Shown one piece after another: positions 25,627 to 56,626 of a DNA stretch of 64,000 nt. Under the pieces are notes generated by a model. The model saw nothing but the letters and a program-made list of their open reading frames with translations. It was not told where the DNA came from and did no database searches. Source of the DNA: Clostridiales bacterium (GTDB lineage Bacteria > Bacillota > Clostridia > Christensenellales > Aristaeellaceae); assembly GCA_004557125.1 (NCBI GenBank), contig SFET01000007.1, forward strand, positions 31,561 to 95,560. The letters are read 5' to 3'. How positions within the stretch are numbered: the stretch's first letter is position 1; each line of letters starts with the position of its first letter. A program made the translations under genes and the position numbers.

Positions 25627-26799
25627 TCAACGATTGTTGATGGAAATTTCCGCGTTGATCTCCTCGGACGAGGAATAGACGGTGAGCGCCCCGTCCGTCA
25701 GCTGCACCCAGGAGACGCTCTCCCCGAAGCAGCTGGGGCAGGGCAGCTTGCCGTCAGCATTGGCGGTGGCGATGCTGTGGGCCGAGGCGTTCTGCATGCC
25801 GGAGCAGTCCTCGGCCAGGTGGTAGTACACACTGCCCGGGGTGTAGTAGACCACGCCGACCCCATCTTCAGCCTCCGTCACGGCAGCGCTCTCGTAGAGG
25901 GTCAGCGGGTTCCAGGCGCAGTCCGAGCAGGCACCGTAGCCCTCCACCAGCGCCTGTTCCATGGTCAGCGCGCGGTCAAGGCTCTGTCCGCCGCAGTCGG
26001 GCACGCTGTGATAGTCGCTGCCCGGCGCGTCGTAACTTGCGTAGACGATGGAGGCCAGCGCCGCCGGCAGGAAGCAGTCGGTGCAGGGGCTCTTGCCCAG
26101 GGAGCGCGCCTCGGCGATGCTCATGAGGTTTGCGTTCTGCATGCCGGAGCAGTCGGACTCCTTGTGGAAGCAGACCCCGCCCTCCGTGCAGAACACCCAA
26201 CTTTCGACGCAGATGGGGCAGGCCTTCTTGCCCAGGGTCGCCGCCTTCTCCCTGGTCATGAGGGATGCGCCCTGCATGCCGGAGCAGTCTGCCTCGTTGT
26301 GATAGTAGTACCCACTCTGCGTGCAGTACACCACGCTTCCGATGCAGGCGGGACAGGCGGTCTTGCCCATGGCCTCGGCCTTCTCGATGGTCATGTGGGT
26401 CGCACCCTCCATGCCAGAGCAGTCGGGCTGACTGTGGTAGTATTTGCCGCCCTCCGTGCAGTAGACGGAGGCCTCGTCGTTCACGGGCGCGGGGGTGTCC
26501 GTGGGCTCAGGCGTGACTGTCGCGGTGGGTTCGGCTGTGACCGTCGCGCTGGGGGCGGGGGTCGGGGTCACGTTGGTTTGGCTCAGGGGGAGCAGGTCGG
26601 GCTTGGGCTGGTTCATGCGGCCCATGGAGAACAGCGCCGCGCCCAGCAGGATCACCAGCGCCGCGGCCACGGACAGCATGCCGGCCACCCTGCGCCGCCG
26701 CGCCGACAGTCGCGCGCCCCGAAGGAAGCCCAGGCGGATGGCCTCGCCCACGCAGTCGGGGGTCTGCGGGAAGGCCCGGTCGAAATCGATCCTGTTCAT
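25627..26799 (-). CDS. Putative anti-sigma factor: short cytoplasmic N-terminus, one TM, Pro/Thr linker, five H-x4-C-x21-C-x2-C modules
   Basis: ATGA-coupled to the ECF sigma gene. TM is MLSVAAALVILLGAALF. Five modules such as YYHSQPDCSGMEGATHMTIEKAEAMGKTACPAC. Confidence 0.6.
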   Translation of the reverse strand: MNRIDFDRAFPQTPDCVGEAIRLGFLRGARLSARRRRVAGMLSVAAALVILLGAALFSMGRMNQPKPDLLPLSQTNVTPTPAPSATVTAEPTATVTPEPTDTPAPVNDEASVYCTEGGKYYHSQPDCSGMEGATHMTIEKAEAMGKTACPACIGSVVYCTQSGYYYHNEADCSGMQGASLMTREKAATLGKKACPICVESWVFCTEGGVCFHKESDCSGMQNANLMSIAEARSLGKSPCTDCFLPAALASIVYASYDAPGSDYHSVPDCGGQSLDRALTMEQALVEGYGACSDCAWNPLTLYESAAVTEAEDGVGVVYYTPGSVYYHLAEDCSGMQNASAHSIATANADGKLPCPSCFGESVSWVQLTDGALTVYSSSEEINAEISINNR

Positions 26800-27278
26800 G
26801 CTTGTTCATCTCCCGCGTTGAGGATTTTGCGCAGGCTGTTTCGGGCCTGGTGCAGCCGGGACTTGACCAGGGAATAGGGGATGTCCAGAATCCGGCCCAC
26901 GTCGCGCAGGTCGTAGCCCTCCAGATAGCGCAGCAGCAGCGGCATGCGGTACTTCTCCGGCATGCTTTCAAGCGCCTCGCGCAGCTGCAGATCCTCGGTC
27001 ATGGAATCCTGCTGCGACGGGCTGACCTGCTCGTCCAGCGGAGACAGCCGCAGCTTCTGCTTCCGCTGCAAATTGCGGCACTCGTTGACCAGGATGCGCG
27101 CAAGCCAGGCCTCGAAACGCGCCTCCTCCTTCAGGGAGCCGCGCTTCATCCAGCCCTTGAACACCGCCTCCTGAATGGCGTCGGCACAGTCGGCGTCATT
27201 CCACAGCACGGCGCGGGCGATGCGGTAGAGCTTGCGCTCCATCGCCTGCACCCGTGCCATGTACTCCTGGTCGCTCAT
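26796..27278 (-). CDS. ECF-type sigma-70 family RNA polymerase sigma factor
   Basis: Region 2 (..DAIQEAVFKGW..) and region 4 (..LPEKYRMPLLLRYLEGYDLRDVGRILDIPYSLVKSRLHQAR..). AGGTG RBS before the ATG at 27278. Confidence 0.88.
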   Translation of the reverse strand: MSDQEYMARVQAMERKLYRIARAVLWNDADCADAIQEAVFKGWMKRGSLKEEARFEAWLARILVNECRNLQRKQKLRLSPLDEQVSPSQQDSMTEDLQLREALESMPEKYRMPLLLRYLEGYDLRDVGRILDIPYSLVKSRLHQARNSLRKILNAGDEQA

Positions 27279-27344
27279 GGTAACACCTGCATTCGTCTTT
27301 GCTGGAGCGCGCACCCTCGCGCGCTCCGCCGGGTTATCGCTGCA

Positions 27345-28100
27345 CTATTGGATGCACACGGGGCAGGCTTCCTTCCCCGCGCGGATTGCGTCCTCGGCGA
27401 ACACGGGAGATGCGTTCTCCATGCCCTGACAGTGGGCGTCGCTGTGATAGTATTTGCCCTTCGCGGTGGCGTAGCAGGTCGCCGCGATGCACACGGGGCA
27501 GGGCTCCTTCCCCGCAAGCACCGCATCCTCCGCGAACACCGGGACAGCGTTCTGCATGCCCTGACAGTGGGAATCGCTGTGGTAGTACCTGCCCTTCTCG
27601 GTGGCGTAGCAGGTCGCCGCGACGCATACCGGGCAGGCCTCCTTGCCCGCGAGGATCGCGTCCTCCGCAGTCACGGGAGAGGCGTTCTGCATGCCGCAGC
27701 AGTCGGAAATGCGGTGGAAGTACTTGCCCCGGGGCGTGGCGTAGTACGCGCCCTCGACGCACACGGGACAGGCAGCCTTTCCCCGTGCGGTCGCCTGCGC
27801 TTCCGTCAGCAGGGAGGCGTTCTGCATGCCCTGACACTGTTTGTCGAGGTGGTAGTATTTGCCCTGCTCGGTGGCGTAGACGCACCCCGCGATGCACAGC
27901 GGGCAGGGGGTCTTGCCGGAGAGCAGCATCTCCTCCTCGGTCATGGGGGATGCGTTCTGCATGCCGGAGCACTGTTTGTCGAGGTGGTAGTAGTTCCCCT
28001 CGGAGGTGGCGTAGAAGGTCTCGGCAGATGCGCATACGGGCAGCAGCATGCACAGAAGCAGCAGGACGCTGCAAGGAACTGCAATGAAAATCCGTTTCAT
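27345..28100 (-). CDS. Secreted protein made only of a signal peptide plus five 45-aa H-x4-C-x21-C-x2-C modules
   Basis: AGGAGGAAAG RBS. Signal peptide MKRIFIAVPCSVLLLLCMLLPVCASA. Five copies of YAT..G.YYH....C.GMQNA......A...GK..CP.C. Confidence 0.8.
   Translation of the reverse strand: MKRIFIAVPCSVLLLLCMLLPVCASAETFYATSEGNYYHLDKQCSGMQNASPMTEEEMLLSGKTPCPLCIAGCVYATEQGKYYHLDKQCQGMQNASLLTEAQATARGKAACPVCVEGAYYATPRGKYFHRISDCCGMQNASPVTAEDAILAGKEACPVCVAATCYATEKGRYYHSDSHCQGMQNAVPVFAEDAVLAGKEPCPVCIAATCYATAKGKYYHSDAHCQGMENASPVFAEDAIRAGKEACPVCIQ
27348..28013 (-). repeat. About 135-bp tandem DNA repeats (5 copies) encoding the Cys/His modules
   Basis: For example, the 27411-27530 and 27541-27660 units align with only scattered substitutions (gttctccatgccctgacagtgggcgtcgctg.. 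versus gttctgcatgccctgacagtgggaatcgctg..). Confidence 0.85.
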
Positions 28101-28153
28101 AAATCTTTCCTCCTGATCGGATGAATCATCTCAAGCATGCTTTCATCTATATA

Positions 28154-28179
28154 GACGAAGGGAAGTGCAGTTTGGTTGA
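28154..28179 (-). promoter_or_regulatory. Candidate ECF-type promoter for the Cys-module/sigma/anti-sigma operon
   Basis: Minus strand reads TCAAC-N17-CGTC (CAAC at 28178-28175, CGTC at 28157-28154), about 55 nt upstream of the start codon at 28100. Confidence 0.4.
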
Positions 28180-28226
28180 ATCTGCGGCAAAAAATATTGT
28201 TTTTTATGGATGCGGAGGAGCACGGC

Positions 28227-28252
28227 TGAACTTTTTCCGATTTCTGACCGTC
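28227..28252 (+). promoter_or_regulatory. Candidate ECF-type promoter for the MotA/MotB-like operon
   Basis: Plus strand reads TGAAC-N17-CGTC (28227-28231 and 28249-28252), about 125 nt upstream of the ATG at 28379. Confidence 0.4.
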
Positions 28253-28378
28253 CAAATGCGGAGAAAGCCGCATTTGTCGATATTTCGTCATGCGGGCATC
28301 CAGATTCCGTCGCATGCCGATGCTATACTGTATGTGTATAGCTATATCGGTGAGAAAGAACAGCAAACGGAGGTACAT

Positions 28379-29950
28379 ATGGGATTTCTTTCTTCCTTAA
28401 AGAGCATCCTGGGCGGCAGCTTTTTCAATCTGCTGATCTATGCAGTCATCCTGTTTGTCTTCATAATGGGCCTGATCAAGTGCGTGTTTCCGGTGCTGCG
28501 CACCCGGGGAACCCTGCGCAGCGCGATCCGCAACATCCGCGCCGGAACCGAGGCGAAGAAGTCCTGGCAGGAGGACGACTTCCTGGGCAAGGGCGTGCTC
28601 AGCGCTCACTGGAGCGAATACTTAAACAACCTGTTCTTCGCGGACGGCGTGTACCACAACGCCTCCAACGTGGAGGACTTCATCAATGAGGAGACCGTGA
28701 TCTACGGCCCCGGACGCGCCGCCTTCAGCGACGCCGTGCCCAGCCTGCTGGTCTCCATCGGCTTCCTGGGCACGCTGATCGGCCTGGCCCAGGGCCTCTC
28801 CGGCTTCAGCATGAGCGACTCCACCGCCGTGATGGACTCCATCGTCACGCTGATCCCCGGCATGCGTTACGCCTTCATGACCTCCATCTTCGGCGTGGTG
28901 GGCTCGGTGGGCTTCACGCTGATCACCCGCGCGGTGCAGGGCTCCACCGAGCACACGCTGCGCGACTTTTACAGCGCCATGAGTCGCCACGCGGGCGTGC
29001 TCTCCGTGGATCCGATGACCCAGGTGGCCATCTACCAGCAGGAGCAGACCGCGCTGATCCGCAAGATGGCAAACGACCTGGACGGCAAGCTGTCCGAGAA
29101 CATCGCCGGCGCGGTGGAGAGGGCCGTGGAGCCGCTGAACCAGAGCCTGAAGAACTTCGTCACCGTCGCCACCCGGGAACAGATGCGCTTCCTCGACGCG
29201 GTGGTGGGCCGGTTCATCGACCGCATGGACGAGATGCTGGGCGGCCAGATGAAGCGGCTGTCCGCGGCGCTGGACGAGACCGCCACGGTGCAGGAGAGCG
29301 CCCTGCGCGCCGTGCACGACAGCCTCGGCGAAACCGGCGAGATGCTGGACGGCATCCGCGAGGTCACGCGCATCGCCAACGACATGGTGCGCTCCAACGC
29401 CAAGTACATAGACGACCTGCGGCAGAACCAGAAGCAGACCGACGATGCCTTCTCCCGCGTGGCATCCAGCGTGGAGCAGATGGATCTGATCAGCCGCCAG
29501 CAGGCGAACTACCTCAAGTCCGTCTCCGCCATGCAGGCCGAGGTCGCCCGCAGCATCGACCAGATGAATTCCTCGCTGAACAACTTCACCAAGCGCGTGA
29601 CCGAGGACAGCGCCAACGCCTCCACCGGCATGCTCAAGGCCGCTGCGGAGCTGCGCGCCACCGGCGAGCACATCAAGGAGATCCACAAGGACTGCACCGA
29701 CGCGATCACTGCGGAGCTGAAGATGACGCTGGATTCCTATCAGGACTACGTCAACCAGTTCACCCAGCGCGTGGATTACCTGGCCGGAAGCATCTCCGAT
29801 TCCTTGAGCCACATGCCCCAGGCGGTGAACGATACCTCCAACCAGTTCCTGGATCAGGTGGACCGCCTCACCGACACCCTGGCCCAGGCCCAGCGCGTGC
29901 TGAACGAGACCGTTGCCCGCCTCTACGGCGACCAGCGGGCCCGGCACTGA
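28379..29950 (+). CDS. MotA/ExbB/TolQ-family proton-channel protein with a roughly 320-aa C-terminal helical tail (ZorA-like architecture)
   Basis: GGAGG lies 5 nt before the ATG. TM1 is FFNLLIYAVILFVFIMGLI. Channel hairpin LLVSIGFLGTLIGLAQG ... YAFMTSIFGVVGSVGFTLI. The remainder is uninterrupted helical/coiled-coil-like sequence. Confidence 0.7.
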   Translation: MGFLSSLKSILGGSFFNLLIYAVILFVFIMGLIKCVFPVLRTRGTLRSAIRNIRAGTEAKKSWQEDDFLGKGVLSAHWSEYLNNLFFADGVYHNASNVEDFINEETVIYGPGRAAFSDAVPSLLVSIGFLGTLIGLAQGLSGFSMSDSTAVMDSIVTLIPGMRYAFMTSIFGVVGSVGFTLITRAVQGSTEHTLRDFYSAMSRHAGVLSVDPMTQVAIYQQEQTALIRKMANDLDGKLSENIAGAVERAVEPLNQSLKNFVTVATREQMRFLDAVVGRFIDRMDEMLGGQMKRLSAALDETATVQESALRAVHDSLGETGEMLDGIREVTRIANDMVRSNAKYIDDLRQNQKQTDDAFSRVASSVEQMDLISRQQANYLKSVSAMQAEVARSIDQMNSSLNNFTKRVTEDSANASTGMLKAAAELRATGEHIKEIHKDCTDAITAELKMTLDSYQDYVNQFTQRVDYLAGSISDSLSHMPQAVNDTSNQFLDQVDRLTDTLAQAQRVLNETVARLYGDQRARH

Positions 29951-29972
29951 TGTGCGCGCCTGAGAAGGGACG

Positions 29973-31001
29973 GTGAAGCGCATGCGATCCAACCGAAGGA
30001 CGCTCGCCCGGCGGTACGGGCGCAACGACGGCAGCTTCTGGCTGAGCTTTTCGGATCTGATGAGCTCGCTGGTGCTGATTATCATTCTGGTGATGTTCTA
30101 CATCATCTATCAATACTTCAACCTGGCGGAGATCAACCAGGCGGAGATCGCCCGCCGCCAGTATCAGCTGGACGAGGCCCAGGCCGAGCTGGAGACCCAG
30201 CAGGGCAAGCTCACCGAGGCGGAGAAGCAGATGATCGCCCAGCAGATTCTGCTGGACGCGAAGCAGGAGGAGCTGGACAGCGCCCAGGCGGTGCTGGAGG
30301 CCCAGAAGACCGAGCTTGCGGATACCCAGGCCCAGCTCAGCGAGAAGGAGGCCGAAATCGCCGCCCAGCAGGCGCAGATGGAGGCCCTGGGCATCCAGCT
30401 GGACGAGCAGCAGGCCCAGATCAACACCCAACAGGCCCAGCTGGACAACCAGCAGGCCCAGATCGAGCAGCTGGTGGGCATGAAGACCCGCATCATCACC
30501 TCGCTCTCCAGCGCGCTGAAGAGCAGCAGCATCTCCGCCACGGTGGATCCCACCACCGGCTCCATCGCCCTGGAATCGGACGTGCTGTTTGAATCCGGCG
30601 AGTACAAGCTCACCGACGCGGGCAAGCGCTTCGTGGACAAGTTCCTGCCGGTGTATCTGGACGTGCTGTTCTCCGAGGAGTACAAGGGCTACGTCTCCGA
30701 GATCATCATCGAGGGCCACACGGACTCCGTGGGCGGGTATCTGACCAACCTGGAACTCTCCCAGCAGCGCGCGCTGGCCGTGGCCAGCTATGTGCTGGGC
30801 GACAGCTGCCGCGCGATCTCGGCGGACGTCAAAAATACGCTCCGACCGGTGGTCACCGTCAACGGCCGCAGTTATAGCGATCGCATCTTCAACGCCGACG
30901 GCACCGAGAACATGGACGCCTCCCGAAGGGTCGTGTTCAAGTTCCGCCTCACCGACGAGCAGATGATCCAGCAGCTGCGCCAGATCTTGGAATCCGAATA
31001 A
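29973..31001 (+). CDS. MotB/OmpA-family peptidoglycan-binding partner with a coiled-coil spacer
   Basis: N-terminal FWLSFSDLMSSLVLIIIL (MotB-type TM with the conserved Asp). About 115-aa Q/E-rich coiled coil. OmpA-like IIIEGHTDSVG..NLELSQQRALAV..SRRVVFKF. GTG at 29973; the ATG at 29982 is an alternative start. Confidence 0.75.
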   Translation: MKRMRSNRRTLARRYGRNDGSFWLSFSDLMSSLVLIIILVMFYIIYQYFNLAEINQAEIARRQYQLDEAQAELETQQGKLTEAEKQMIAQQILLDAKQEELDSAQAVLEAQKTELADTQAQLSEKEAEIAAQQAQMEALGIQLDEQQAQINTQQAQLDNQQAQIEQLVGMKTRIITSLSSALKSSSISATVDPTTGSIALESDVLFESGEYKLTDAGKRFVDKFLPVYLDVLFSEEYKGYVSEIIIEGHTDSVGGYLTNLELSQQRALAVASYVLGDSCRAISADVKNTLRPVVTVNGRSYSDRIFNADGTENMDASRRVVFKFRLTDEQMIQQLRQILESE

Positions 31002-31037
31002 AACAAAGCATCAAAAGACAAAAGGGGAAATGCAAAA

Positions 31038-31592
31038 GTGCTCCACCTTCGCAGGCTGGTCTGGTTCATCGCCTCCCGGCTGATCCTGCTGTGCATCATC
31101 TGCGGCATCCTTGTGTGCGCCTTCTACATGTGCCTGAACACGGCAAACATCTACATCATCCTCACCGACGGCCTGGAGAAGCGCGCCAGCGTGATCCTGA
31201 CCCAGGAGGACGCCGAGGATCTGAACTTCTACTTCCACGCCGACTTCCTCAGCGCCGACCGCGCGCTGGAGGGCGCCTTCGACGGCACCAGCGTGTACGA
31301 CGATTACAGCATCACCGACTTCGAATACGAACTGAAGATCGAAAAGCTCTGGGCCTGGCCCTGGGACAACTACGCCACCTGCACGGTTGTGGAGCGCGTG
31401 CCCTCCATCACCGGCAGCGTGATCTCCAGCCGCAAGAGCGAGGTCTCCGGCAGCGTGCCCTCCTGGCAGGGCGGCCGCTACGACATCACGCTGGTCAAGG
31501 TCAGCGGCGAGTGGAAGATCCTCGGCATGCAGCAGACCACCGTGCTGATGGAGGCCGCCGGAGCCGATGCCACAGTCGGCCCCGAAGCGTAA
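31038..31592 (+). CDS. Single-pass membrane protein with an extracytoplasmic globular domain, unknown function
   Basis: GTG start. N-in TM (LVWFIASRLILLCIICGILVCAFYM) followed by about 150 aa of mixed alpha/beta sequence. No family recognised. Confidence 0.5.
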   Translation: MLHLRRLVWFIASRLILLCIICGILVCAFYMCLNTANIYIILTDGLEKRASVILTQEDAEDLNFYFHADFLSADRALEGAFDGTSVYDDYSITDFEYELKIEKLWAWPWDNYATCTVVERVPSITGSVISSRKSEVSGSVPSWQGGRYDITLVKVSGEWKILGMQQTTVLMEAAGADATVGPEA

Positions 31593-31711
31593 AATTTTCC
31601 AAATCTGTGCCCTTCCGATGGGAAGTTTTTCCCCGGAAGGGCTGTTCAGATGAAGGGACTTATGTTATAATTACATATGTATAATTGCAAAAAGGGTTAG
31701 GAGGCTTATCC

Positions 31712-33295
31712 ATGGATCGAAAGAATAAGGTGTGGCTTGTCGTGCTGGCACTTCTGCTGGTGCTGGCAATCGCGGCAGTGATCGTCATCAACGGCAGGCT
31801 GTCCACGTCCAAGACGGCGCTGGAGGCGATGAGCACGCAGCTGGCCACGGAGCAGGAGAATTCCGAGGCGCTGAACGCGCAGCTGGAAGCGCTCCAGCAG
31901 AGCAGCGAAGATCTGCAGAGCGAGCTTGCACAGGCCAATGAAGAGAAAGCCTCCCTTGAAACGCAGCTGACCGAGGCGGAAGCAAAGACCACCGAGGCCG
32001 AAGCGCGCGCCACCGAGGCGGAGACGAAGGTCGCAGAGCTGGAGAATCGCGCTACTGTGGCCGAGACGAAGGCTGCCGATCTGGAGGCGCAGCTGGGCGT
32101 GGCTGCTGACAGCAACGCCGCCCTGACGGGACAGCTGAGCGCTGCGCAGACCCAGGCGGAGCAGCTGGCCAGCGATCAGCAGGCCGCGCAGTACACCATC
32201 GCCACCATGGAGACTGCCGCACAGGAATATCAGAAGCGCATCGAGGAGCTGGAGACCTGCGCCGTGGATGCCCAGAACAGGATCGACGAGCTCAACGCCG
32301 CCATCCGCACCGCTGAGGAGCGCATCGTGGAGCTGGGCGGCGAGGTGACGCCCACCGCGCAGGAGGGCGACGTCGTGCCCGCCGCACAGACGGCCGGTGC
32401 ACAGCCGGTGGAGGGTGATCCGACTGCAGCGGCTCAGGCGCCCCTGCTGGCGGTGCCCGAGGTGCAGACCCCCGAAATCCTGGCAAATGCCGACAAGGTG
32501 AATGTGGAAGAGATCTATGCGGACATCGATTCCATCGTCAATGGCGGCGAGGGCGCCATGACCGACGAGGAGAAGGTCGCCGCGCTGGATGAGCTGAAGG
32601 CGGAGCTTGCCGGCTACGTCAGCGAGCTGAACGCAGCGCTGGAGGAGATCGCCGCACAGGAGAGCGCGCTGGCCGCTTCCGTGGACAGCATCGAGTCCCT
32701 GGAGGCCAATCTCGCCGCCGCACAGGCCCAGGTGGATGAGCTGGCCGCAGCCATCGCCCAGAGCGAGGAGACCATCGCCAGCCTCGAAACCCAGCTTTCC
32801 GAGCTCACCGCCCAGAGCGAGAGCGACATCGCCCTCGCTGCCTCCCAGATCGAGACCCTCAACGGACAGATCGCCGAGGAGCAGACCAGGGTCGCCGAGC
32901 TCAGCTCCCAGCTGGAGATCGCCAACGCCGAGCTGGCCGCGCGCATCGCCGAGCTGGAGGCCTACAAGCTCAACCGCGAGCTGGTGGAGGGTGACGCCTA
33001 CACCGCATCCACGCTGGGCGACGTCCTGGCGGTTGCCGCCGACGGCGTGACCGTGGAGTGGACCTACACCAATGACACCATCAGCGGCAACGCAGTGGTG
33101 CTCAGCATTGAACTGGACGGCGAGGAGCTCTACCGCTCTGAGCTGCTCAATCCGGGTGAGAGCCTGGAGGGCATCGTGCTGAACCGCGCCCTGGAGGCCG
33201 GCAGCTACGAGGCCGTGGCCGTGGCGGGCGTGTACGGCGCCGACGGCGAAGCCATTTCCTCCACGCACGTGCCGGTGACCATCCAGGTCGGCTGA
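31712..33295 (+). CDS. Single-pass membrane protein with a roughly 400-aa extracytoplasmic coiled coil and a beta-rich C-terminal domain
   Basis: AGGAGG lies 7 nt before the ATG at 31712. TM is VWLVVLALLLVLAIAAVIVI. Long A/E/Q/L heptad-like sequence. C-terminal ..VTVEWTYTNDTISGNAVVLSIELDGEELY... Confidence 0.65.
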   Translation: MDRKNKVWLVVLALLLVLAIAAVIVINGRLSTSKTALEAMSTQLATEQENSEALNAQLEALQQSSEDLQSELAQANEEKASLETQLTEAEAKTTEAEARATEAETKVAELENRATVAETKAADLEAQLGVAADSNAALTGQLSAAQTQAEQLASDQQAAQYTIATMETAAQEYQKRIEELETCAVDAQNRIDELNAAIRTAEERIVELGGEVTPTAQEGDVVPAAQTAGAQPVEGDPTAAAQAPLLAVPEVQTPEILANADKVNVEEIYADIDSIVNGGEGAMTDEEKVAALDELKAELAGYVSELNAALEEIAAQESALAASVDSIESLEANLAAAQAQVDELAAAIAQSEETIASLETQLSELTAQSESDIALAASQIETLNGQIAEEQTRVAELSSQLEIANAELAARIAELEAYKLNRELVEGDAYTASTLGDVLAVAADGVTVEWTYTNDTISGNAVVLSIELDGEELYRSELLNPGESLEGIVLNRALEAGSYEAVAVAGVYGADGEAISSTHVPVTIQVG

Positions 33296-33322
33296 GCCGC
33301 GAGCGGACATTTCAGACGTGCG

Positions 33323-33354
33323 ACAGGGCGAAGCAAAGGCTTCGCCCTGTTTTT
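33323..33354 (+). terminator. Intrinsic terminator closing the MotAB-like operon
   Basis: acagggcgaagc/gcttcgccctgt stem followed by ttttt. Confidence 0.8.
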
Positions 33355-51852: not shown

Positions 51853-54800
51853 TCACGGATTGAGATTCAACTCCTGATACAGGAGGTAGTTGAGCGTTGC
51901 CTCGTCGATGGAGCTGTCCATCGCGGGATCGATCACCGTCAGATTCGCGCCGTAGAGCTCGTTGACCTTCATCTGGAAGGCGGCGACGGCCTCCAGCGTG
52001 GCGGCGTCCAGCACGCCGGGCTCGGCGTTGTCGGCATTGATCAGGCCGTACTTGTACAGCGCCCACTGCACGCTCTGAATGTCGTTCGGATCGCTGGCGG
52101 CGTCGATGTAGGTGAGCTGTTCGCTGCCGGAATCCGCCGGGACGTCCGGCTCCACGGGTGCTTCGGGTTCGGCCGCGCCGGGCACACCGAAGACCAGCTG
52201 ATTCCACACTGCGTCGGCTTCGCTGCCGCCCAAGGGAACCGCGCCCACCGTGAGACGCCACAGGCCCGGACCCTTCAGGGAGAGCAGGTAGTCCGTCTCG
52301 ACGGTCTTGCCGGTGTCGTTGGTGGAGCCGAGGGAATAATCGGTGCCGTCCTCGTAGCTCAGCGTGGCGATGTAGTGATCCACGTCGCCCTCGGCCATCC
52401 AGCTGAAGATGATGCTGGAGCCGCTGATGTAGGTCACGCCGTTCTCCTGGTAGACCGAGGAGCCGATGTTGATGACGGGCGCGTTGACGCTGGGCGCGCG
52501 GGTGGGCTCGGGCGTGGGCTCCTGGGTGGGCTCCGCGGTGGCTGCGGCCGGTCGGGCCAGCTGAATCGTCTGCCAGACGATGTCAGCTTCGCCGCCGTTT
52601 TCCGGCAGCGCACCCACGCGCAGGGTGTAGGTCTTGCCGGGGGACATGTCCTTGCTGTTGACGGTCATCTCCGTCTTTGTGGTGGCGTCCGTGCTGTTGA
52701 TGAGGTTGTTGTCCTCGTCGTAGAGGTAGATGGAGTAGCCCGCTGCGCCGGAGGCGCCCCAGGTGATGCTGAACTTGCCGCTGTCGGGCACTTCGATGAT
52801 GCTGCCGTCGCTGCTCATGCCATTCACCTGCACGCGGAAGTCCTCCACGGTGCCGACGGCCGGCTGCTCGGGCTCCGGCGCGGATGTTTCAACGGGCGCA
52901 TCGGTGGCAGAAGCGCCGCCGATGGTCCATTCGTTGCTGTAACAGTACTCCAGGTACTGCAGCGTCAGCGCGTCGCACACGCCGGTGACCTCCAGCACCT
53001 GTTCGCCCTTCTCCTGGTTGACCCACTGCTGGAAGGCGACGACGGCGCTGACGGTTCCGTTGCCATAGCTGCCGTCCACATCGGCGGGGGTCAGCAGGCC
53101 CACGGCGGAGAGCATCTCCTGCACGTAGCGGATGGATTCCTTCGGAGAGGAGCCGTCCACGACGATGTTGCCGCCCTCGCTGTAATCGGGATCCTCCTCG
53201 GGCGCCACGGTGGGTTCCTCGGTGGGAACCGGCGTGGGCTCGGGCGTGGGCGCCTCGGTGGGCGCCTGGGTGGCGTACGCCGCGCCGATGTTCCAGCCGT
53301 TGTCGGAGCAGTACTCCAGGTACTGCAGCGTCAGCGCGTCGCAGATGCCGGTGACCTCCAGCACCCCGCTGCCCTTCTCCTGGTTGACCCACTGCTGGAA
53401 GAGCACGACGGCGTTGATGGTCCGGTTGCCGTAGTTGCCGTCCACGTCGGAGGACTTCAGCAGGCCCACGGTGGAGAGCATCTCCTGCACGTAGCGGATG
53501 GACTCCTTCGGCGAGGAGGCGTCCACGAGGTTGTTGTCCTCGGTGTAATCGGGATCCTCCACGGGGGCCACGGTGGGCTCCTCGGTGGGAACCTGCGTGG
53601 GAACCTGCGTGGGCGCTTGCGTGGGAACCTGCGTCGGCGCCTGGGTTGCGGTGGATACCTTCATGCCGTTTTCCACACAGTAGCGCAGGTACTGCTGGGT
53701 CAGCAGATCGCACTCGCCGGTGACGGCCAGGGTCTCCACGCCGCGGTTTTCGTTGACGTACTGCTGGAAGGCCTTCACGGCGGCGGTGGTTCCCTTGCCG
53801 TACTTGCCGTCCACGTCGCTGGACTTGAGCAGACCCACGGCCTCCAGCAGCTCCTGCATCTGGGTGATCTCCGCCCTGGAGGAGGAGCTGTTGATGGTGC
53901 CGCTGCCCTGCGGGGTGTTCATGGGCTTGGGGGTGGCCGTCGCGGTGGGTGCGGGCGTGGGCGTGGCCGCCTGCTGCTCCAGCCACCAGTCGACGTAGTA
54001 GTCCAGATAGGTCTGGGTCAGCTCGTCCACCACGCCGTCCACGTTCAGCGCGTTGTAGCCCTGCAGCTGGTTGACGCGGATCTGGAAGTTCTTCACCGCG
54101 GTGGTGGTGCTGGAGCCGAACACGCCGTCGGCGCTGCCCTCGGGCAGCAGGCCCAGCGCGATGAGCTGCTGCTGGAGGCCGCGGATGGCCGACTTGGAGG
54201 AGCCGGCGTTGATCACGCCCTTGTCGGGCGCGGCGGTCACCAGCGGCTTCGGCGTGGGCGTGGGCTTGGTGAGGGACACGGAGGAGTTGTACAGCCACTG
54301 CAGGGTCTTCTGGCCCGCAATGCCGTCCACGGCGAGCTTCTTCGCCGGGGAGCAGTTCTCGTTGACGTAGGTCTGGAAGTCCTTCACCGCCTGCTTGGTG
54401 GCGGCGTCGTACTTGCCGGTCACGTTGGAGCTGCTCAGCCAGCCCAGCTTCACCAGGGTTTTCTGCAGAGAGGTGACGTCGGTGGTGCTGGAGGAGTTGT
54501 TGACGGTGTCATACTTTTCCTCGGTGATGATGGTGGGCTTCTTCGTGGGCGTGGCAGCCTGTTGCTGCTGCTGGTTGTATTCCTTCTCAACGTCGCCGTT
54601 GTAGGTGTAGTCCATCCACGAGAGCTCCGGATCCACCAGCGCCGCGAAGGTGGCGGTGGCATAGGGCGTGGGCGTGGGCGTCGAGAGCGGCATCCAGGTG
54701 GTGTCGGTCGCCACGGTGGCCAGGGGATTTTCGATGGTCACGTCGTCCGGGTCGCTCATGGAGTTGAGGAACAGCACCAGGCCCAGGGCGATCACCAGCA

Positions 54801-55317
54801 CCACGGCGGCCGCGATGCAGATGTAGAGCACGATCTTCTTGCGATGATCGGCCTCGTCCAGATCGTCGTCGACTTCGTCCTCGTGGGAGGGGGCTGCGCC
54901 GTTCTTGCGCTGGGCGATGTAAGCCGTGCCGTTCTCCTCGAAGTAGAAGTGGCGCTTCTTGGGATCCTCCACGCTCTCCACGCTGGCGCGCAGCTTCTGC
55001 ATGCCGGCCTCGAAGGCGTCCTCCATGCCGGCGATGGGCACGACGCTGCCGTCGTTGAGGCGCTCGGCGCAGTTGCGGGGCAGGTATTCGCGGATGCGGA
55101 TGATGCCGCCGCGCTTGGTGTCCAGCGCGGTGTACACGATGCCGCCCGAATCCTGGCCCAGGGCGCGACCCACCAGGAAGCGGTCGCGGTACACCAGGGT
55201 GCCCGGCAGCATCTGAATTTGCGGAACCGCGGCGCGCGCGTCCTTGCCGCAGTGCGGGCAGATGCTCTCGCCGTTCAGGTCCTGAAAGCAGTACATGCAC
55301 AGATTTTCGTATGCCAT
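51853..55317 (-). CDS. Large membrane protein: zinc-ribbon plus kinase-N-lobe-like cytoplasmic head, one TM, six PG_binding_1-like repeats, two Ig/FN3-like modules
   Basis: AAAGGAG lies 8 nt before the ATG at 55317. CMYC..CPHC zinc ribbon. TM is IVLYICIAAAVVLVIALGLVLFL. Six units of the type ..S..I..(L/V)Q..L...G(L/W)L......G.(Y/F)...T..AV..FQ... Confidence 0.8.
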   Translation of the reverse strand: MAYENLCMYCFQDLNGESICPHCGKDARAAVPQIQMLPGTLVYRDRFLVGRALGQDSGGIVYTALDTKRGGIIRIREYLPRNCAERLNDGSVVPIAGMEDAFEAGMQKLRASVESVEDPKKRHFYFEENGTAYIAQRKNGAAPSHEDEVDDDLDEADHRKKIVLYICIAAAVVLVIALGLVLFLNSMSDPDDVTIENPLATVATDTTWMPLSTPTPTPYATATFAALVDPELSWMDYTYNGDVEKEYNQQQQQAATPTKKPTIITEEKYDTVNNSSSTTDVTSLQKTLVKLGWLSSSNVTGKYDAATKQAVKDFQTYVNENCSPAKKLAVDGIAGQKTLQWLYNSSVSLTKPTPTPKPLVTAAPDKGVINAGSSKSAIRGLQQQLIALGLLPEGSADGVFGSSTTTAVKNFQIRVNQLQGYNALNVDGVVDELTQTYLDYYVDWWLEQQAATPTPAPTATATPKPMNTPQGSGTINSSSSRAEITQMQELLEAVGLLKSSDVDGKYGKGTTAAVKAFQQYVNENRGVETLAVTGECDLLTQQYLRYCVENGMKVSTATQAPTQVPTQAPTQVPTQVPTEEPTVAPVEDPDYTEDNNLVDASSPKESIRYVQEMLSTVGLLKSSDVDGNYGNRTINAVVLFQQWVNQEKGSGVLEVTGICDALTLQYLEYCSDNGWNIGAAYATQAPTEAPTPEPTPVPTEEPTVAPEEDPDYSEGGNIVVDGSSPKESIRYVQEMLSAVGLLTPADVDGSYGNGTVSAVVAFQQWVNQEKGEQVLEVTGVCDALTLQYLEYCYSNEWTIGGASATDAPVETSAPEPEQPAVGTVEDFRVQVNGMSSDGSIIEVPDSGKFSITWGASGAAGYSIYLYDEDNNLINSTDATTKTEMTVNSKDMSPGKTYTLRVGALPENGGEADIVWQTIQLARPAAATAEPTQEPTPEPTRAPSVNAPVINIGSSVYQENGVTYISGSSIIFSWMAEGDVDHYIATLSYEDGTDYSLGSTNDTGKTVETDYLLSLKGPGLWRLTVGAVPLGGSEADAVWNQLVFGVPGAAEPEAPVEPDVPADSGSEQLTYIDAASDPNDIQSVQWALYKYGLINADNAEPGVLDAATLEAVAAFQMKVNELYGANLTVIDPAMDSSIDEATLNYLLYQELNLNP

Positions 55318-55354
55318 ATTTTCCACTCCTTTGGCGGGGAATTCGGGGGTAGAA

Positions 55355-56626
55355 TCAGCCGATCAGATCGGCCAGGTCGGCGCACACATCCGCAAAGATC
55401 TCCTCGATCGTGCGGTTGGAATCGATGATGTGCACGCGCTCCGGCTCGGCGGCGTGGATCTCCGCGTAGGCCTCGTAGACCCGGCGGACGAAGCTGTCGC
55501 CCTCCACCTCGATGCGGTCCAGCTGCGTTCCCGCGCGCAGGCGCCGGGACACGGCCTCCCGATCTCCCACGAACAGCAGCGTGCGGTCGGGGGTGATCGC
55601 CCTTGCCGGTGCGTTTATTTGACGTATAAAATCGTCTCCAAGTTCACGCCCACGGGCCTGATAGGCAAAACTTGAATCCAAAAATCGATCGCAGAGCACA
55701 ATTTTGCCATTTTTTACCGCAGGAAGGATCACCTGGCGGACGTGCTCCGCGCGGGATGCGGCGTAGAGCAGGGCCTCGCATTCGGAGGACATGCCCTTGT
55801 AGCGGATGTCCAGCACCAGTTCGCGGATGCGCTCGGAGATCTCGCAGCCGCCGGGCTCGCGGGTGCAGAGCACGTCGTAGCCGCGCTCGCGCAGGTATTC
55901 AGCCAGCATGTTCATCTGGGTGCTCTTGCCGCAGCCGTCCGCGCCCTCGAAGCTGATGAAGCGCCCCGGGGCCACAGTCTCGCCCGGCAGCAGGATCTCC
56001 CGCAGCGCAGAGACGCTGTCGGCGATCTCGTCCGCGCCGGATTCTTCGAGCTCCGCGTGGGAGCCGTAGCCGTAGCTCACGCCGATGGCGCGCAGGCCCA
56101 TGTCCCGTGCGGCGGCCATGTCGAACTTCCGGTCGCCCACCATGGCGGCGCCCTCGACGCTGCGGCCGTTGAGGGCGGCGGAGATCAGTTCGTGCTTGTC
56201 GGCGTGGGTGGTCTCCATGTGGATGCCCACGATGGCGTCAAAGTACTGCGCGAAGCCGAAGTGGTCGGCGATGCGGCGCACGAAGACCTCCGGCTTGCCG
56301 CTGGCGATGCCCAGATAGCAGCCCTGCGCCTTCAATTCCTTCAGAAGCGGCGCGATGCCGGTGTAGAGCCGGTTCTCCCGCCAGCCGATCTCGGAGAAGC
56401 GCTCGCGATAGACGTCGGCGGCGTGGCGCGCATCTTGTTCGCTCAGCCCGGTGTACTCCATGAACGCTGCCACCAGCGGAGGCCCCACGAAGCGATCCAG
56501 GATCGCCTGTTCGGGCACGGGCAGCCCCAGTTTTTCGCAGGCGTAGGCCACGCTGCGGGTGATGCCGATGCCGGATTCCGTGAGGGTGCCGTCCAGGTCA
56601 AAGAGGATCGTACTGTATTTCAACAA
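55355..56626 (-). CDS. tmk: Fusion protein: HAD-superfamily phosphatase (PGP-like) plus dTMP kinase
   Basis: N-terminal ILFDLDGTLTES...GDRKFD. C-terminal FISFEGADGCGKSTQ, ..TREPGG.., ..LCDRFLDSSFAYQ.. (thymidylate kinase). Confidence 0.85.
   Translation of the reverse strand: MLKYSTILFDLDGTLTESGIGITRSVAYACEKLGLPVPEQAILDRFVGPPLVAAFMEYTGLSEQDARHAADVYRERFSEIGWRENRLYTGIAPLLKELKAQGCYLGIASGKPEVFVRRIADHFGFAQYFDAIVGIHMETTHADKHELISAALNGRSVEGAAMVGDRKFDMAAARDMGLRAIGVSYGYGSHAELEESGADEIADSVSALREILLPGETVAPGRFISFEGADGCGKSTQMNMLAEYLRERGYDVLCTREPGGCEISERIRELVLDIRYKGMSSECEALLYAASRAEHVRQVILPAVKNGKIVLCDRFLDSSFAYQARGRELGDDFIRQINAPARAITPDRTLLFVGDREAVSRRLRAGTQLDRIEVEGDSFVRRVYEAYAEIHAAEPERVHIIDSNRTIEEIFADVCADLADLIG

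What the first reader, a model, noticed from the sequence alone, without database searches (positions are those of the whole stretch)
28101..28378. Two outward-facing ECF-type promoter motifs (TnAAC-N17-CGTC) in one intergenic region link the ECF sigma operon to the stator-like operon
Seen in the sequence: the plus strand has TGAAC(28227-28231)-N17-CGTC(28249-28252), pointing at the MotA-like gene. The minus strand has TCAAC(28179-28175)-N17-CGTC(28157-28154), pointing at the Cys-module/sigma/anti-sigma operon. Established knowledge: many ECF sigma factors recognise an AAC-containing -35 element and a CGT-containing -10 element 16-17 nt apart. They also autoregulate their own operon. Inference: the sigma factor at 26796-27278 may drive both divergent operons, which would make 25627-33354 a single seven-gene stress-responsive regulon. 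Finding two correctly oriented copies of a 7-nt specified motif in 278 bp looks unlikely by chance, but I have not computed a statistic.
Basis: partly seen in the sequence, partly recalled or inferred. Interest (0 to 1): 0.65.

Follow-up and report, generated by a model that had tools for sequence, protein, structure and literature searches.

The report
ECF promoter pair flanking ZorAB-like operon
Two back-to-back stress-sigma (ECF) promoter motifs are really there and are conserved in related bacteria: one sits in front of the sigma factor's own operon, the other in front of a membrane-motor operon related to the ZorAB phage-defence motor, which suggests this motor is switched on by cell-envelope stress.

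Summary
TGAAC-N17-CGTC lies at 28227-28252 (+) and TCAAC-N17-CGTC at 28179-28154 (-). 0.0045 matches are expected in this 278-bp spacer, and no match on both strands occurred in 20,000 shuffles.

Both motifs are conserved where it matters. All 15 orthologous sigma operons examined carry TTCAAC-N17-CGTCTAAT 64-80 nt (153 in one) before their first gene. AAC-N17-CGTC lies within 300 nt upstream of the "MotA-like" gene in 38 of 75 species, against 2.1 expected. The enrichment is specific to that strand and that spacing. Flanking bases not used in the search are also conserved (consensus aTGGAACc-N16-gCGTCnaA).

The "stator-like" genes are ZorA/ZorB-like. They lack known Zorya effectors and are inherited vertically across Christensenellales-type Clostridia.

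- The ZorA-like operon also has a more strongly conserved sigma-A-type extended -10 promoter (28321-28329), so control is probably dual.
- The coiled-coil gene has a promoter-like element of its own.
- Sigma adjacency is confined to one clade.
- The two motif classes differ consistently (TTCAAC versus GGAAC), so another ECF sigma could read the Zor-side promoter.

No transcription data exist. As regulation this is ordinary. The ECF link to a ZorAB-like motor appears to be new.

The parts
28227..28252 (+). ECF-type promoter motif facing the ZorA-like operon. The -35 is TGAAC (28227-28231). A T5 tract follows at 28232-28236. The -10 is CGTC (28249-28252), followed by CAA. The inferred transcription start is about 28258-28262.
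   Evidence: Searches give the position. It is the top-scoring matrix (PWM) hit in the whole 64-kb window. The same motif lies upstream of the orthologous gene in 38 of 75 species against 2.1 expected, and is specific for strand and N17 spacing. 48 of 76 loci have a PWM hit at p<0.01.
28154..28179 (-). ECF-type, probably autoregulatory, promoter motif facing the Cys-module/sigma/anti-sigma operon. The -35 is TCAAC (28179-28175). The -10 is CGTC (28157-28154), followed by TATA. The inferred transcription start is about 28148-28144.
   Evidence: TTCAAC-N17-CGTCTA(AT) is present 64-80 nt (153 in one locus) upstream of the first gene in all 15 orthologous sigma operons examined, with unconserved spacers.
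27345..28100 (-). Secreted protein made of a signal peptide plus five Cys/His modules of about 45 aa. It is the first gene behind the minus-strand promoter in this lineage only.
   Evidence: One search gives the translation. No Pfam, NCBIfam or PADLOC family matches. It is 37-45% identical to the extracellular part of the anti-sigma. H13, C18, C40 and C43 are invariant in the module alignment. The AlphaFold2 module model has pLDDT 92.8 and no PDB fold match. The gene is absent between promoter and sigma in L004 and L161-L168.
26796..27278 (-). ECF sigma factor of 160 aa, with regions 2 and 4 only.
   Evidence: Pfam Sigma70_r2 and Sigma70_r4_2 score above their cut-offs. TIGR02937 sigma70-ECF scores above its cut-off, and no specific equivalog does. 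The closest solved relatives are SigH, SigW and RpoE.
25627..26799 (-). Putative membrane anti-sigma factor. It has a short N-terminal cytoplasmic segment, one transmembrane helix, a Pro/Thr linker and five Cys/His modules outside the cell. Its start overlaps the sigma stop codon by 4 nt.
   Evidence: One search gives the translation and coordinates. One search shows the modules it shares with 27345-28100. A large Pfam-less protein follows the sigma gene in every orthologous locus.
28379..29950 (+). ZorA-like MotA/ExbB-family channel protein of 523 aa with a C-terminal coiled-coil tail of about 290 aa.
   Evidence: PF28082 'ZorA-like_t1' is recorded on orthologues. PADLOC ZorA models reach E=1.6e-26. 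The best PDB sequence hits are ZorA chains 8vvn and 8qyd. NCBIfam ZorA models score below their cut-offs. Pfam MotA_ExbB scores 20.7, below its cut-off of 22.9.
29973..31001 (+). ZorB/MotB-like protein. It has a transmembrane helix with a conserved Asp (FSDLMS), a coiled-coil linker and an OmpA-type peptidoglycan-binding domain.
   Evidence: Pfam OmpA scores 39.1, above its cut-off of 27.2. PADLOC ZorB1 reaches E=3.3e-69. NCBIfam ZorB1 scores 73.6, below its cut-off of 400.
31038..31592 (+). Membrane-anchored protein of 184 aa: an N-terminal transmembrane helix plus a domain with weak NTF2-like fold resemblance. It is the third conserved gene of the cluster and is highly conserved.
   Evidence: tblastn synteny is. 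Homologues are 66-91% identical and carry no Pfam family. The AlphaFold2 model has pLDDT 76.9. Foldseek finds weak NTF2-like hits, with E about 3e-3.
31712..33295 (+). Membrane-anchored coiled-coil protein. The mechanical ORF starts at TTG 31685. ATG 31712, behind GGAGG, is the likelier start. An extended -10-like element, TGTTATAAT, lies at 31663-31671.
   Evidence: In other species it lies a median of about 1.5 kb from the third gene.
28321..28343 (+). Sigma-A-type extended -10 (TGcTATACT, 28321-28329) overlapping the palindrome GCTATAC-N7-GTATAGC (28322-28342).
   Evidence: It is conserved in the 11 aligned close loci. TGnTATA(C/A)T lies upstream of the ZorA-like gene in 14 of 16 more distant loci inspected.
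28274..28291 (+). Conserved direct-repeat-like block TTGTCG-N6-CGTCAT (consensus TTGTCAnnATTTCGTCA), 30-45 nt upstream of the extended -10. It may be a regulator binding site.
   Evidence: Alignment; the same block is visible in most of the loci shown.
33324..33354 (+). Intrinsic-terminator-like hairpin (CAGGGCGAAGC-AAAG-GCTTCGCCCTG followed by TTTTT) ending the + strand gene set.
   Evidence: Read directly from the sequence. The automatic scan did not list it.

Best explanation
The 278-bp spacer holds two divergent ECF-sigma-dependent promoters.

The minus-strand one (TCAAC-N17-CGTCTA) is the positively autoregulated promoter of the ECF sigma operon. In this lineage that operon is a Cys-module secreted protein, the sigma, and a membrane anti-sigma whose extracellular part is built from the same Cys/His modules.

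The plus-strand one (TGAAC-TTTTT-N12-CGTCCAA) is an ECF-dependent, inducible promoter of a ZorA-like/ZorB-like/NTF2-like-membrane-protein operon. It lies about 70 nt upstream of that operon's own sigma-A-type extended -10 promoter, so the operon has a basal or separately regulated input plus a stress input.

Proposed sequence of events: an extracellular signal acts on the Cys/His modules and the anti-sigma releases the sigma. The sigma then raises its own expression and, most likely, that of the neighbouring ZorAB-like proton-channel and peptidoglycan-binding complex.

Shown here: the motifs, their statistical rarity, their strand- and spacing-specific conservation in front of both gene sets, and the gene identities.

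Inferred: that the motifs initiate transcription, that the adjacent sigma reads both, the nature of the signal, and what the ZorAB-like complex does.
For: 1. The motifs exist and are rare. 0.0045 are expected in the spacer, and no both-strand occurrence appeared in 20,000 shuffles.
2. They fit the ECF hallmarks: AAC at -35, CGT at -10, a co-transcribed anti-sigma and positive autoregulation (PMC8103513).
3. Sigma side: all 15 orthologous or related sigma operons (57-100% identity) have TTCAAC-N17-CGTCTAAT 64-80 nt (153 in one) upstream, with unrelated spacers.
4. Zor side: AAC-N17-CGTC is present in 38 of 75 species within 300 nt upstream, against 2.1 expected from the rest of the loci.
5. With spacings N12-N22, and on the opposite strand, only 0-6 loci match.
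6. Bases not used in the search are conserved: G before AAC in 36 of 39 instances, and A three bases after CGTC in 38 of 39.
7. 48 of 76 loci have a matrix (PWM) hit at p<0.01, including the deepest branches at 35-45% protein identity.
8. The motif lies upstream of the sigma-A promoter in the window's clade and downstream of it in another clade. In six loci an ECF-type motif scores well in front of the third gene; five of these (L040, L043, L048, L053, L054) have no significant motif before the ZorA-like gene within 300 nt (L048's contig is cut inside that gene). This positional turnover with retained -35/-10 is what an independent promoter would show.
9. Sigma and ZorA-like operons are divergent neighbours, with both motifs present, in nine loci of one clade: the window, L001-L004, L161, L164, L166 and L168.
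10. The window's + motif has a T5 tract directly after the -35, as described for ECF target promoters in B. subtilis (PMC5758882).
11. It is the best matrix hit in the 64-kb window.
Against: - There are no transcript or transcription-start data.
- The two motif classes differ consistently. The sigma side is TTCAAC...CGTCTAAT in 13 of 15 loci. The Zor side has G before AAC in 36 of 39 instances and a variable base after CGTC.
- In B. subtilis, CGTC promoters with a T-tract are read by several ECF sigmas.
- Sigma adjacency is confined to one clade, so it counts as about one evolutionary event rather than repeated independent association.
- 28 of 76 loci have no significant motif within 300 nt upstream of the ZorA-like gene. 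This includes L007, whose MAG does encode the sigma orthologue on another contig (L167).
- The sigma-A-type promoter is more widely conserved than the ECF motif.
- Counts across related genomes are not independent, and the matrix was trained on 39 of the loci it then scores.
Confidence: 0.6

Rival explanations
1. Both motifs are real ECF promoters, but the plus-strand (Zor-side) one is read by a different ECF sigma, or by several, encoded elsewhere in the genome. The neighbouring sigma controls only its own operon, and the adjacency reflects a shared envelope theme or chance.
For: - The consensus differs consistently between sigma-side and Zor-side promoters.
- The Zor-side motif is ancestral and found in clades where no sigma lies within 7 kb.
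- Adjacency arose in one clade only.
- B. subtilis ECF sigmas overlap on CGTC/T-tract promoters, while autoregulatory promoters are selective (PMC5758882).
- L007 lacks the motif although its MAG has the sigma.
Against: - In the window the two motifs differ by a single specified base (TGAAC against TCAAC) and share N17 spacing and CGTC.
- In all nine adjacent loci both motifs are kept back to back, even after a 400-bp insertion in L168.
- No other ECF sigma gene is detectable in the window or within 7 kb of any of the 80 ZorA-like loci.
Confidence: 0.25
2. The plus-strand motif is not a working promoter in this organism. The ZorA-like operon is transcribed only from the conserved sigma-A-type extended -10 promoter at 28321-28329, perhaps under a regulator that binds the TTGTCA/CGTCA repeats. 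The ECF-like motif would be a relic or a chance match.
For: - The extended -10, palindrome and upstream block are more widely and more strongly conserved than the ECF motif.
- 28 of 76 loci lack a significant ECF motif upstream of the ZorA-like gene.
Against: - The enrichment is 18-fold and specific for strand and spacing.
- Flanking bases not used in the search are conserved.
- The motif persists in the closest relatives L001-L005 while neighbouring bases change.
- Chance probability in this spacer is about 0.003 for one strand.
Confidence: 0.08
3. The two motifs are the half-sites of one long inverted-repeat operator for a DNA-binding regulator, not two promoters.
For: Being on opposite strands, they form an imperfect inverted repeat (GACG...GTTGA / TGAAC...CGTC).
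Against: - The distance between the two -35 elements ranges from about 8 to 47 bp among orthologous loci, while each motif's internal 17-nt spacing is fixed.
- Each motif occurs alone in most genomes.
- The repeat search found no extended symmetry.
Confidence: 0.03

Closest known systems
Bacillus subtilis envelope-stress ECF sigma promoters (sigma-V/M/X/W; tgaAACnTTTt-N-CGTC)
   Same: AAC at -35 and CGTC at -10 with a 16-17 nt spacer. A T-tract sits directly after the -35 in the target promoter (28232-28236). The autoregulatory promoter lacks the T-tract. The sigma is co-transcribed with a membrane anti-sigma. Some targets carry an additional sigma-A promoter (PMC5758882; PMC8103513).
   Different: The sigma matches no B. 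subtilis equivalog above its cut-off: SigV 88 bits against 190, SigW 85 against 209. The anti-sigma's sensor is a repeated Cys/His module with no described family. The target is a ZorAB-like operon, not cell-wall modification genes.
Zorya anti-phage defence (ZorAB motor with ZorC/D, ZorE or ZorF/G effectors)
   Same: A MotA-family subunit with a long C-terminal coiled-coil tail, and a MotB-family subunit with a transmembrane Asp and an OmpA-type peptidoglycan-binding domain. PADLOC ZorA reaches 1.6e-26 and ZorB1 3.3e-69. The best solved relatives are ZorA chains. In the published model ZorAB senses envelope perturbation (PMC11946911), which fits control by an envelope-stress sigma.
   Different: No ZorC, D, E, F or G is present. 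The partners are an NTF2-like membrane protein and a coiled-coil membrane protein. NCBIfam Zor models score below their cut-offs. The cluster is inherited vertically across an order of Clostridia, and the few inspected loci sit beside housekeeping genes. [quoted passage not shown] Nothing here tests phage defence.
Myxococcus xanthus DdvS/DdvA, an ECF sigma/anti-sigma pair controlling a CRISPR-Cas system (PMC6061681)
   Same: A precedent for an ECF sigma/anti-sigma pair switching on a defence-related gene set. This rests on the title and abstract listed; the paper was not read.
   Different: The target, the phylum and the sensor are all different. It is relevant only if the ZorAB-like cluster turns out to be defensive.

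Membership tests
ECF-sigma-dependent promoter | AAC-containing -35 element and CGT-containing -10 element | tested here: met
   TGAAC/CGTC on the + strand and TCAAC/CGTC on the - strand. The hallmark is as stated in PMC8103513.
ECF-sigma-dependent promoter | Fixed spacer of 16-17 nt, kept while the spacer sequence varies | tested here: met
   N17 in both window motifs. Across 75 species, N17 gives 38 loci with a match and every other spacing from N12 to N22 gives 0-6. Spacers are unrelated among the sigma-side promoters.
ECF-sigma-dependent promoter | Located upstream of the sigma's own operon (positive autoregulation) | tested here: met
   By position only. The motif lies 64-80 nt (153 in one) upstream of the first gene of 15 of 15 sigma operons. 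Autoregulation itself was not measured.
ECF-sigma-dependent promoter | Transcription starts a few nt downstream of the -10 and depends on the sigma | not testable with these tools
   No transcriptome or biochemical data are available.
ECF sigma/anti-sigma pair | Sigma with regions 2 and 4 only | tested here: met
   160 aa. Pfam Sigma70_r2 and Sigma70_r4_2 score above their cut-offs, as does TIGR02937.
ECF sigma/anti-sigma pair | Co-transcribed transmembrane anti-sigma with a recognisable anti-sigma domain | tested here: inconclusive
   The downstream gene overlaps the sigma stop codon by 4 nt and has one hydrophobic helix after about 38 N-terminal residues. No Pfam or NCBIfam anti-sigma domain matches.
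Zorya anti-phage system (types I-III) | ZorA: MotA-family channel with a long cytoplasmic coiled-coil tail | tested here: inconclusive
   PADLOC ZorA models reach 1.6e-26. PF28082 'ZorA-like_t1' is recorded on orthologues. PDB ZorA hits reach 1e-10. All NCBIfam ZorA models score below their curated cut-offs, for example 81.8 against 100.
Zorya anti-phage system (types I-III) | ZorB: MotB-family subunit with a peptidoglycan-binding domain | tested here: inconclusive
   PADLOC ZorB1 reaches 3.3e-69 and Pfam OmpA scores above its cut-off. NCBIfam ZorB1 scores 73.6 against a cut-off of 400.
Zorya anti-phage system (types I-III) | Type-specific soluble effectors (ZorC/ZorD, ZorE, or ZorF/ZorG) encoded alongside | tested here: not met
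   Neither downstream protein hits a Zor effector model. One has no PADLOC hit at all, and the other hits only coiled-coil regions of JetC and LmuB models. The third gene's model gives only weak NTF2-like fold matches.
Flagellar stator MotAB | Membership of the MotA_ExbB family at Pfam's threshold, with MotB-type equivalogs | tested here: not met
   Pfam MotA_ExbB scores 20.7, below its cut-off of 22.9. MotD and MotS equivalogs score far below their cut-offs. ZorA models match better.

The most novel reading that the evidence does not exclude
A ZorAB-type proton-driven motor, so far known only as the sensor of the Zorya phage-defence system, has in Christensenellales-type Clostridia become a vertically inherited core envelope module. 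It lacks nuclease effectors and is partnered with a membrane-anchored protein of weakly NTF2-like fold and a coiled-coil protein. It is wired as an ancestral target of an ECF envelope-stress sigma whose anti-sigma senses through a previously undescribed repeated Cys/His (probably metal-binding or redox-sensitive) module. ZorAB-like motors would then have a stress-response role beyond phage defence, or be a stress-induced defence of a new type.
Probability: 0.3. Interest if true: 0.7.

Novelty: new member of a known kind. Interest (0 to 1): 0.5.

Why it matters
As regulation this is a textbook ECF arrangement: an autoregulated sigma/anti-sigma operon next to a divergent target. What is less ordinary is the target. 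It is a ZorA/ZorB-like motor that is conserved across a whole order of Clostridia, a group with single-membrane envelopes according to the phylum-level survey in PMC11946911. It lacks the known Zorya effectors. An ECF-type promoter precedes its ZorA-like gene in about two thirds of 76 species, including the deepest branches.

If the link is real, it offers a handle on what ZorAB-like motors do outside classical defence islands. It also offers a simple way to induce them experimentally, by sigma overexpression or anti-sigma deletion. The conserved motif (aTGGAACc-N16-gCGTCnaA) can be used at once to predict the regulon in these mostly uncultured gut and rumen bacteria.

Tried and rejected
- Structured leader RNA: an Rfam scan of 27900-28600 at E<=1 gave only sub-threshold eukaryotic noise, so no known leader or riboswitch is present.
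- Hairpin at 28253-28277 (CAAATGCGG/CCGCATTTG): the left arm is not conserved even in the 93%-identical relatives L001-L003, so it is treated as fortuitous.
- One palindromic operator: rejected because the distance between the two motifs varies among loci.
- Standard sigma-70 scan of the spacer: no hits. The extended -10 promoter only emerged from the cross-species alignment.
- The palindrome as an RNA hairpin: the two variant loci (L006, L008) break the pairing rather than compensate for it. This is weak evidence for a DNA-level element.
- Second-best matrix hit in the window (55648-55618, - strand): it lies inside a thymidylate-kinase-like coding region. I did not accept it as a regulon member.
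- Metagenome scan with the sigma alignment: it returned mostly 40-45% paralogues without the motif. Closer orthologues had to be fetched one at a time.
- Sequence and fold searches for the Cys/His module: nothing found.
- Literature search for 'ZorA-like', 'ZorAB-like' or 'ZorB-like': no papers. A search for Zorya, ZorA and ECF sigma listed only one paper holding all three terms, with a single mention of ECF sigma; I did not open it.
- Another ECF sigma in the window or near other ZorA-like loci: none detected by tblastn at E<=0.1 (loci) or E<1 (window).
Full report
**1. The observation**

The sequence and an exact pattern search confirm both motifs.
- TGAAC (28227-28231), 17 nt, CGTC (28249-28252) on the + strand.
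- TCAAC (28179-28175), 17 nt, CGTC (28157-28154) on the - strand.

They lie in the 278-bp spacer between the Cys-module gene (start 28100, - strand) and the MotA-like gene (ATG at 28379, + strand). The motif specifies 8 bases, not 7.

Under the spacer's own composition the exact pattern is expected 0.0029 times on the + strand and 0.0044 times on the - strand. None of 20,000 dinucleotide-preserving shuffles had it on both strands. A loose textbook pattern (AAC-N16-18-CGT on both strands, pointing outward) occurred in 0.24% of shuffles. The window as a whole holds 7 exact matches against 1.15 expected. The two others I examined lie inside coding sequence: 29136 sits in a conserved LNQSLKNFV codon run of the ZorA-like gene, and 55621 sits in a thymidylate-kinase-like gene. 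The sites at 254, 39842 and 48907 were not examined.

**2. The genes**

Minus strand:
- 27345-28100 encodes a secreted protein of five Cys/His modules of about 45 aa.
- 26796-27278 encodes a 160-aa ECF sigma. Pfam r2 and r4_2 and TIGR02937 score above their cut-offs, and no specific equivalog does. The nearest solved relatives are SigH, SigW and RpoE.
- 25627-26799 encodes a single-pass membrane protein. Its start overlaps the sigma stop codon, and its outer part carries five more copies of the same module.

Plus strand:
- 28379-29950 encodes a MotA-family protein with a coiled-coil tail of about 290 aa.
- 29973-31001 encodes a MotB-family protein with a transmembrane Asp and an OmpA domain.
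- 31038-31592 encodes a membrane-anchored protein whose model gives only weak NTF2-like fold matches (pLDDT 77).
- A membrane-anchored coiled-coil protein ends at 33295 and is followed by a terminator hairpin at 33324-33354.

The first two plus-strand proteins are ZorA/ZorB-like rather than flagellar stators.
- Orthologues carry PF28082 'ZorA-like_t1'.
- PADLOC gives ZorA 1.6e-26 and ZorB1 3.3e-69.
- The best solved relatives are ZorA chains.
- Pfam MotA_ExbB falls below its threshold.
- NCBIfam's curated Zor models are also below their cut-offs, and no ZorC, D, E, F or G is present.

I therefore describe the pair as ZorAB-like, not as a Zorya system.

**3. Comparative test, Zor side**

A scan of one genome per species returned 80 loci. 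They are Clostridia MAGs labelled Clostridiales, Christensenellales or Aristaeellaceae. The closest are 93-94% identical in the ZorA-like protein.

The ZorA-like, ZorB-like and third genes are syntenic in nearly all loci. The sigma operon is adjacent only in L001-L004.

Even so, AAC-N17-CGTC lies within 300 nt upstream of the ZorA-like gene, on the coding strand, in 38 of 75 usable loci. The rest of the same loci predict 2.1. As a control, spacings from N12 to N22 and the opposite strand give 0-6 loci. Four of the six opposite-strand N17 hits are the sigma-side motifs of L001-L004.

Positions not used in the search are also conserved. G precedes AAC in 36 of 39 instances, and A lies three bases after CGTC in 38 of 39. 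The spacer carries little information. The consensus is aTGGAACc-N16-gCGTCnaA.

A two-block matrix finds a hit with p<0.01 in 48 of 76 loci, including -10 variants (TGTC). The deepest branches, at 35-45% protein identity, are among them. The matrix was trained on 39 of these loci, and the genomes are related, so these counts overstate independence. The spacing and strand control and the divergent spacers are the stronger arguments.

The motif also moves relative to other elements. It is upstream of the sigma-A-type promoter in the window's clade and downstream of it in the L022-L050 clade. In L040, L043, L048, L053 and L054 there is no significant motif before the ZorA-like gene within 300 nt (L048's contig is cut inside that gene), and an ECF-type motif lies in front of the third gene instead; L061 has one in both places.

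**4. Comparative test, sigma side**

Sigma orthologues of 57-69% identity were fetched individually (L161-L168). Together with the window, L001-L004, L081 and L087, all 15 have (c)TTCAAC(c)-N17-CGTCTA(at). The motif lies 64-80 nt upstream of the first gene of the operon, or 153 nt in L167, and the spacers are unrelated.

In L004 and L161-L168 the motif directly precedes the sigma gene. In the window and L001-L003 the Cys-module gene has been inserted between promoter and sigma.

Four of these eight loci (L161, L164, L166, L168) again have the ZorA-like operon as the divergent neighbour, with both motifs back to back. In L168 a 400-bp repeat insertion separates the Zor-side ECF motif from the rest of the leader, but not from the sigma-side motif.

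A tree of ZorA-like proteins shows that all nine adjacent loci form one clade. Two members of that clade are non-adjacent: L005 keeps the motif, and L007 has lost it. The ECF motif is therefore ancestral to the cluster, and the sigma adjacency is a later, single-clade event.

**5. What else is in the spacer**

Aligning the leaders and inspecting distant loci reveals a block that is more strongly conserved than the ECF motif.
- An extended -10, TGcTATACT (28321-28329), overlaps the palindrome GCTATAC-N7-GTATAGC (28322-28342).
- It is preceded by ATCCnnATTCCGCC and by a direct-repeat-like TTGTCAnnATTTCGTCA (28274-28291).

This looks like a sigma-A promoter with regulator sites. The ZorA-like operon therefore most likely has two promoters, as many ECF targets do.

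The coiled-coil gene has its own TGTTATAAT (31663-31671) and a likelier start at ATG 31712. In other species it lies a median of about 1.5 kb from the third gene.

**6. Mechanism**

The most likely reading is as follows (confidence about 0.6).
1. The anti-sigma holds the sigma at the membrane.
2. A signal perceived by the extracellular Cys/His modules releases it.
3. The sigma then transcribes its own operon from the minus-strand promoter and the ZorAB-like operon from the plus-strand promoter, on top of a sigma-A-driven basal level.

The plus-strand promoter carries a T5 tract immediately after the -35. In B. subtilis this feature stimulates ECF target promoters and broadens the set of sigmas that read them, while autoregulatory promoters tend to lack it and be selective (PMC5758882). 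The same contrast is seen here.

That parallel also feeds the main rival (about 0.25). The Zor-side and sigma-side consensus sequences differ consistently (GGAAC against TTCAAC; CGTCnaA against CGTCTAAT), so a second ECF sigma may read the Zor-side promoter. I could not inventory whole genomes to settle this.

Two further rivals are unlikely: a non-functional relic motif (about 0.08) and a single palindromic operator (about 0.03).

**7. Comparison with what is known, and novelty**

The regulatory layout is a standard ECF design (PMC8103513). On that score the finding is a new member of a known kind.

The target is the less ordinary part. [quoted passage not shown] Here a ZorAB-like pair without nuclease effectors is inherited vertically across a clostridial order. 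In the few loci whose neighbours were inspected it sits beside housekeeping genes. An ECF-type promoter precedes it.

My searches found no paper describing this link. This is an absence of hits in an open-access library, not proof that none exists.

The Cys/His module has invariant H, C and CxxC residues and a confident small beta-beta-beta-alpha model (pLDDT 92.8). It has no Pfam, PDB sequence or PDB fold relative. It appears to be an undescribed sensor domain.

**8. Verdict**

Interest is moderate at 0.5. The promoters themselves are ordinary. The conserved link between an ECF promoter and a ZorAB-like motor is worth an experiment.

Noticed in passing
window 28274-28343 (+): There is a strongly conserved non-coding block upstream of the ZorA-like gene. 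It holds the direct-repeat-like TTGTCG-N6-CGTCAT, then ATCCagATTCCG, then the extended -10 TGcTATACT overlapping the palindrome GCTATAC-N7-GTATAGC. The extended -10 recurs in most of the loci inspected, even at about 40% protein identity. It is probably a sigma-A promoter with binding sites for an unidentified regulator.
   Followed up: partly
window 27345-28100 (-) and 25627-26799 (-): Ten copies of a module of about 45 aa (Y-x-T-x2-G-x-YYH-x4-C-x-GM-x-NA...GK-x2-C-x2-C) with invariant H, C and CxxC. Five make up a secreted protein, and five make up the outer part of the anti-sigma. The AlphaFold2 model has pLDDT 92.8. No Pfam family, PDB sequence match or PDB fold match was found. It may be a metal- or redox-sensing domain. 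The secreted copy could act as a decoy or co-sensor.
   Followed up: partly
window 31038-31592 (+): The third gene of the cluster is its most conserved protein (66-91% identity among the listed homologues) and has no family assignment. The predicted fold is one transmembrane helix plus a domain with weak NTF2-like resemblance.
   Followed up: partly
window 55618-55648 (-): The second-best ECF-motif match in the window (CGTGAAC-N17-CGTCAAA) lies inside a HAD/thymidylate-kinase-like coding region. It is about 290 nt upstream of a 1157-aa membrane protein with repeated domains (51853-55326, - strand). It could be an internal promoter or chance.
   Followed up: no
window 31663-31714 (+): A consensus extended -10 (TGTTATAAT) and GGAGG-N7-ATG (31712) precede the coiled-coil gene. 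A weak hairpin with a T-run lies at 31612-31634, after the third gene. The coiled-coil gene is probably also transcribed on its own, and its listed TTG start at 31685 is probably wrong.
   Followed up: partly
window 27304-27327 (-): A GC-rich hairpin (GGAGCGCGC-GAGGGT-GCGCGCTCC) without a T-run lies in the 66-nt gap between the Cys-module gene and the sigma gene. It may be a processing or attenuation element within the operon.
   Followed up: no
L168 4440-4880; L167 4640-4730: Tandem direct repeats of about 125 bp are inserted between the Zor-side ECF motif and the ZorA-like leader in L168. A duplicated 44-bp unit lies upstream of the sigma promoter in L167. These look like small repeat or mobile insertions in the regulatory regions.
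   Followed up: no
L010 11988 and 12075 (-); L053 14295 (+); L054 9919 (+); L067 2451 (+): Further good ECF-motif matches in the flanks of other loci sit upstream of predicted secreted or membrane proteins. One is duplicated 87 bp apart in L010. They are candidate additional regulon members.
   Followed up: partly
sigma-operon leaders, e.g. L163 4955-4990, L165 4960-4995; window 28118-28150 (-): Downstream of the sigma-side -10, the leaders share conserved elements of unknown role: (G/A)TGCTTAAGCA and TTGTACAACG. The first is kept in the window as ATGCTTGAG. The second was lost where the Cys-module gene was inserted.
   Followed up: no
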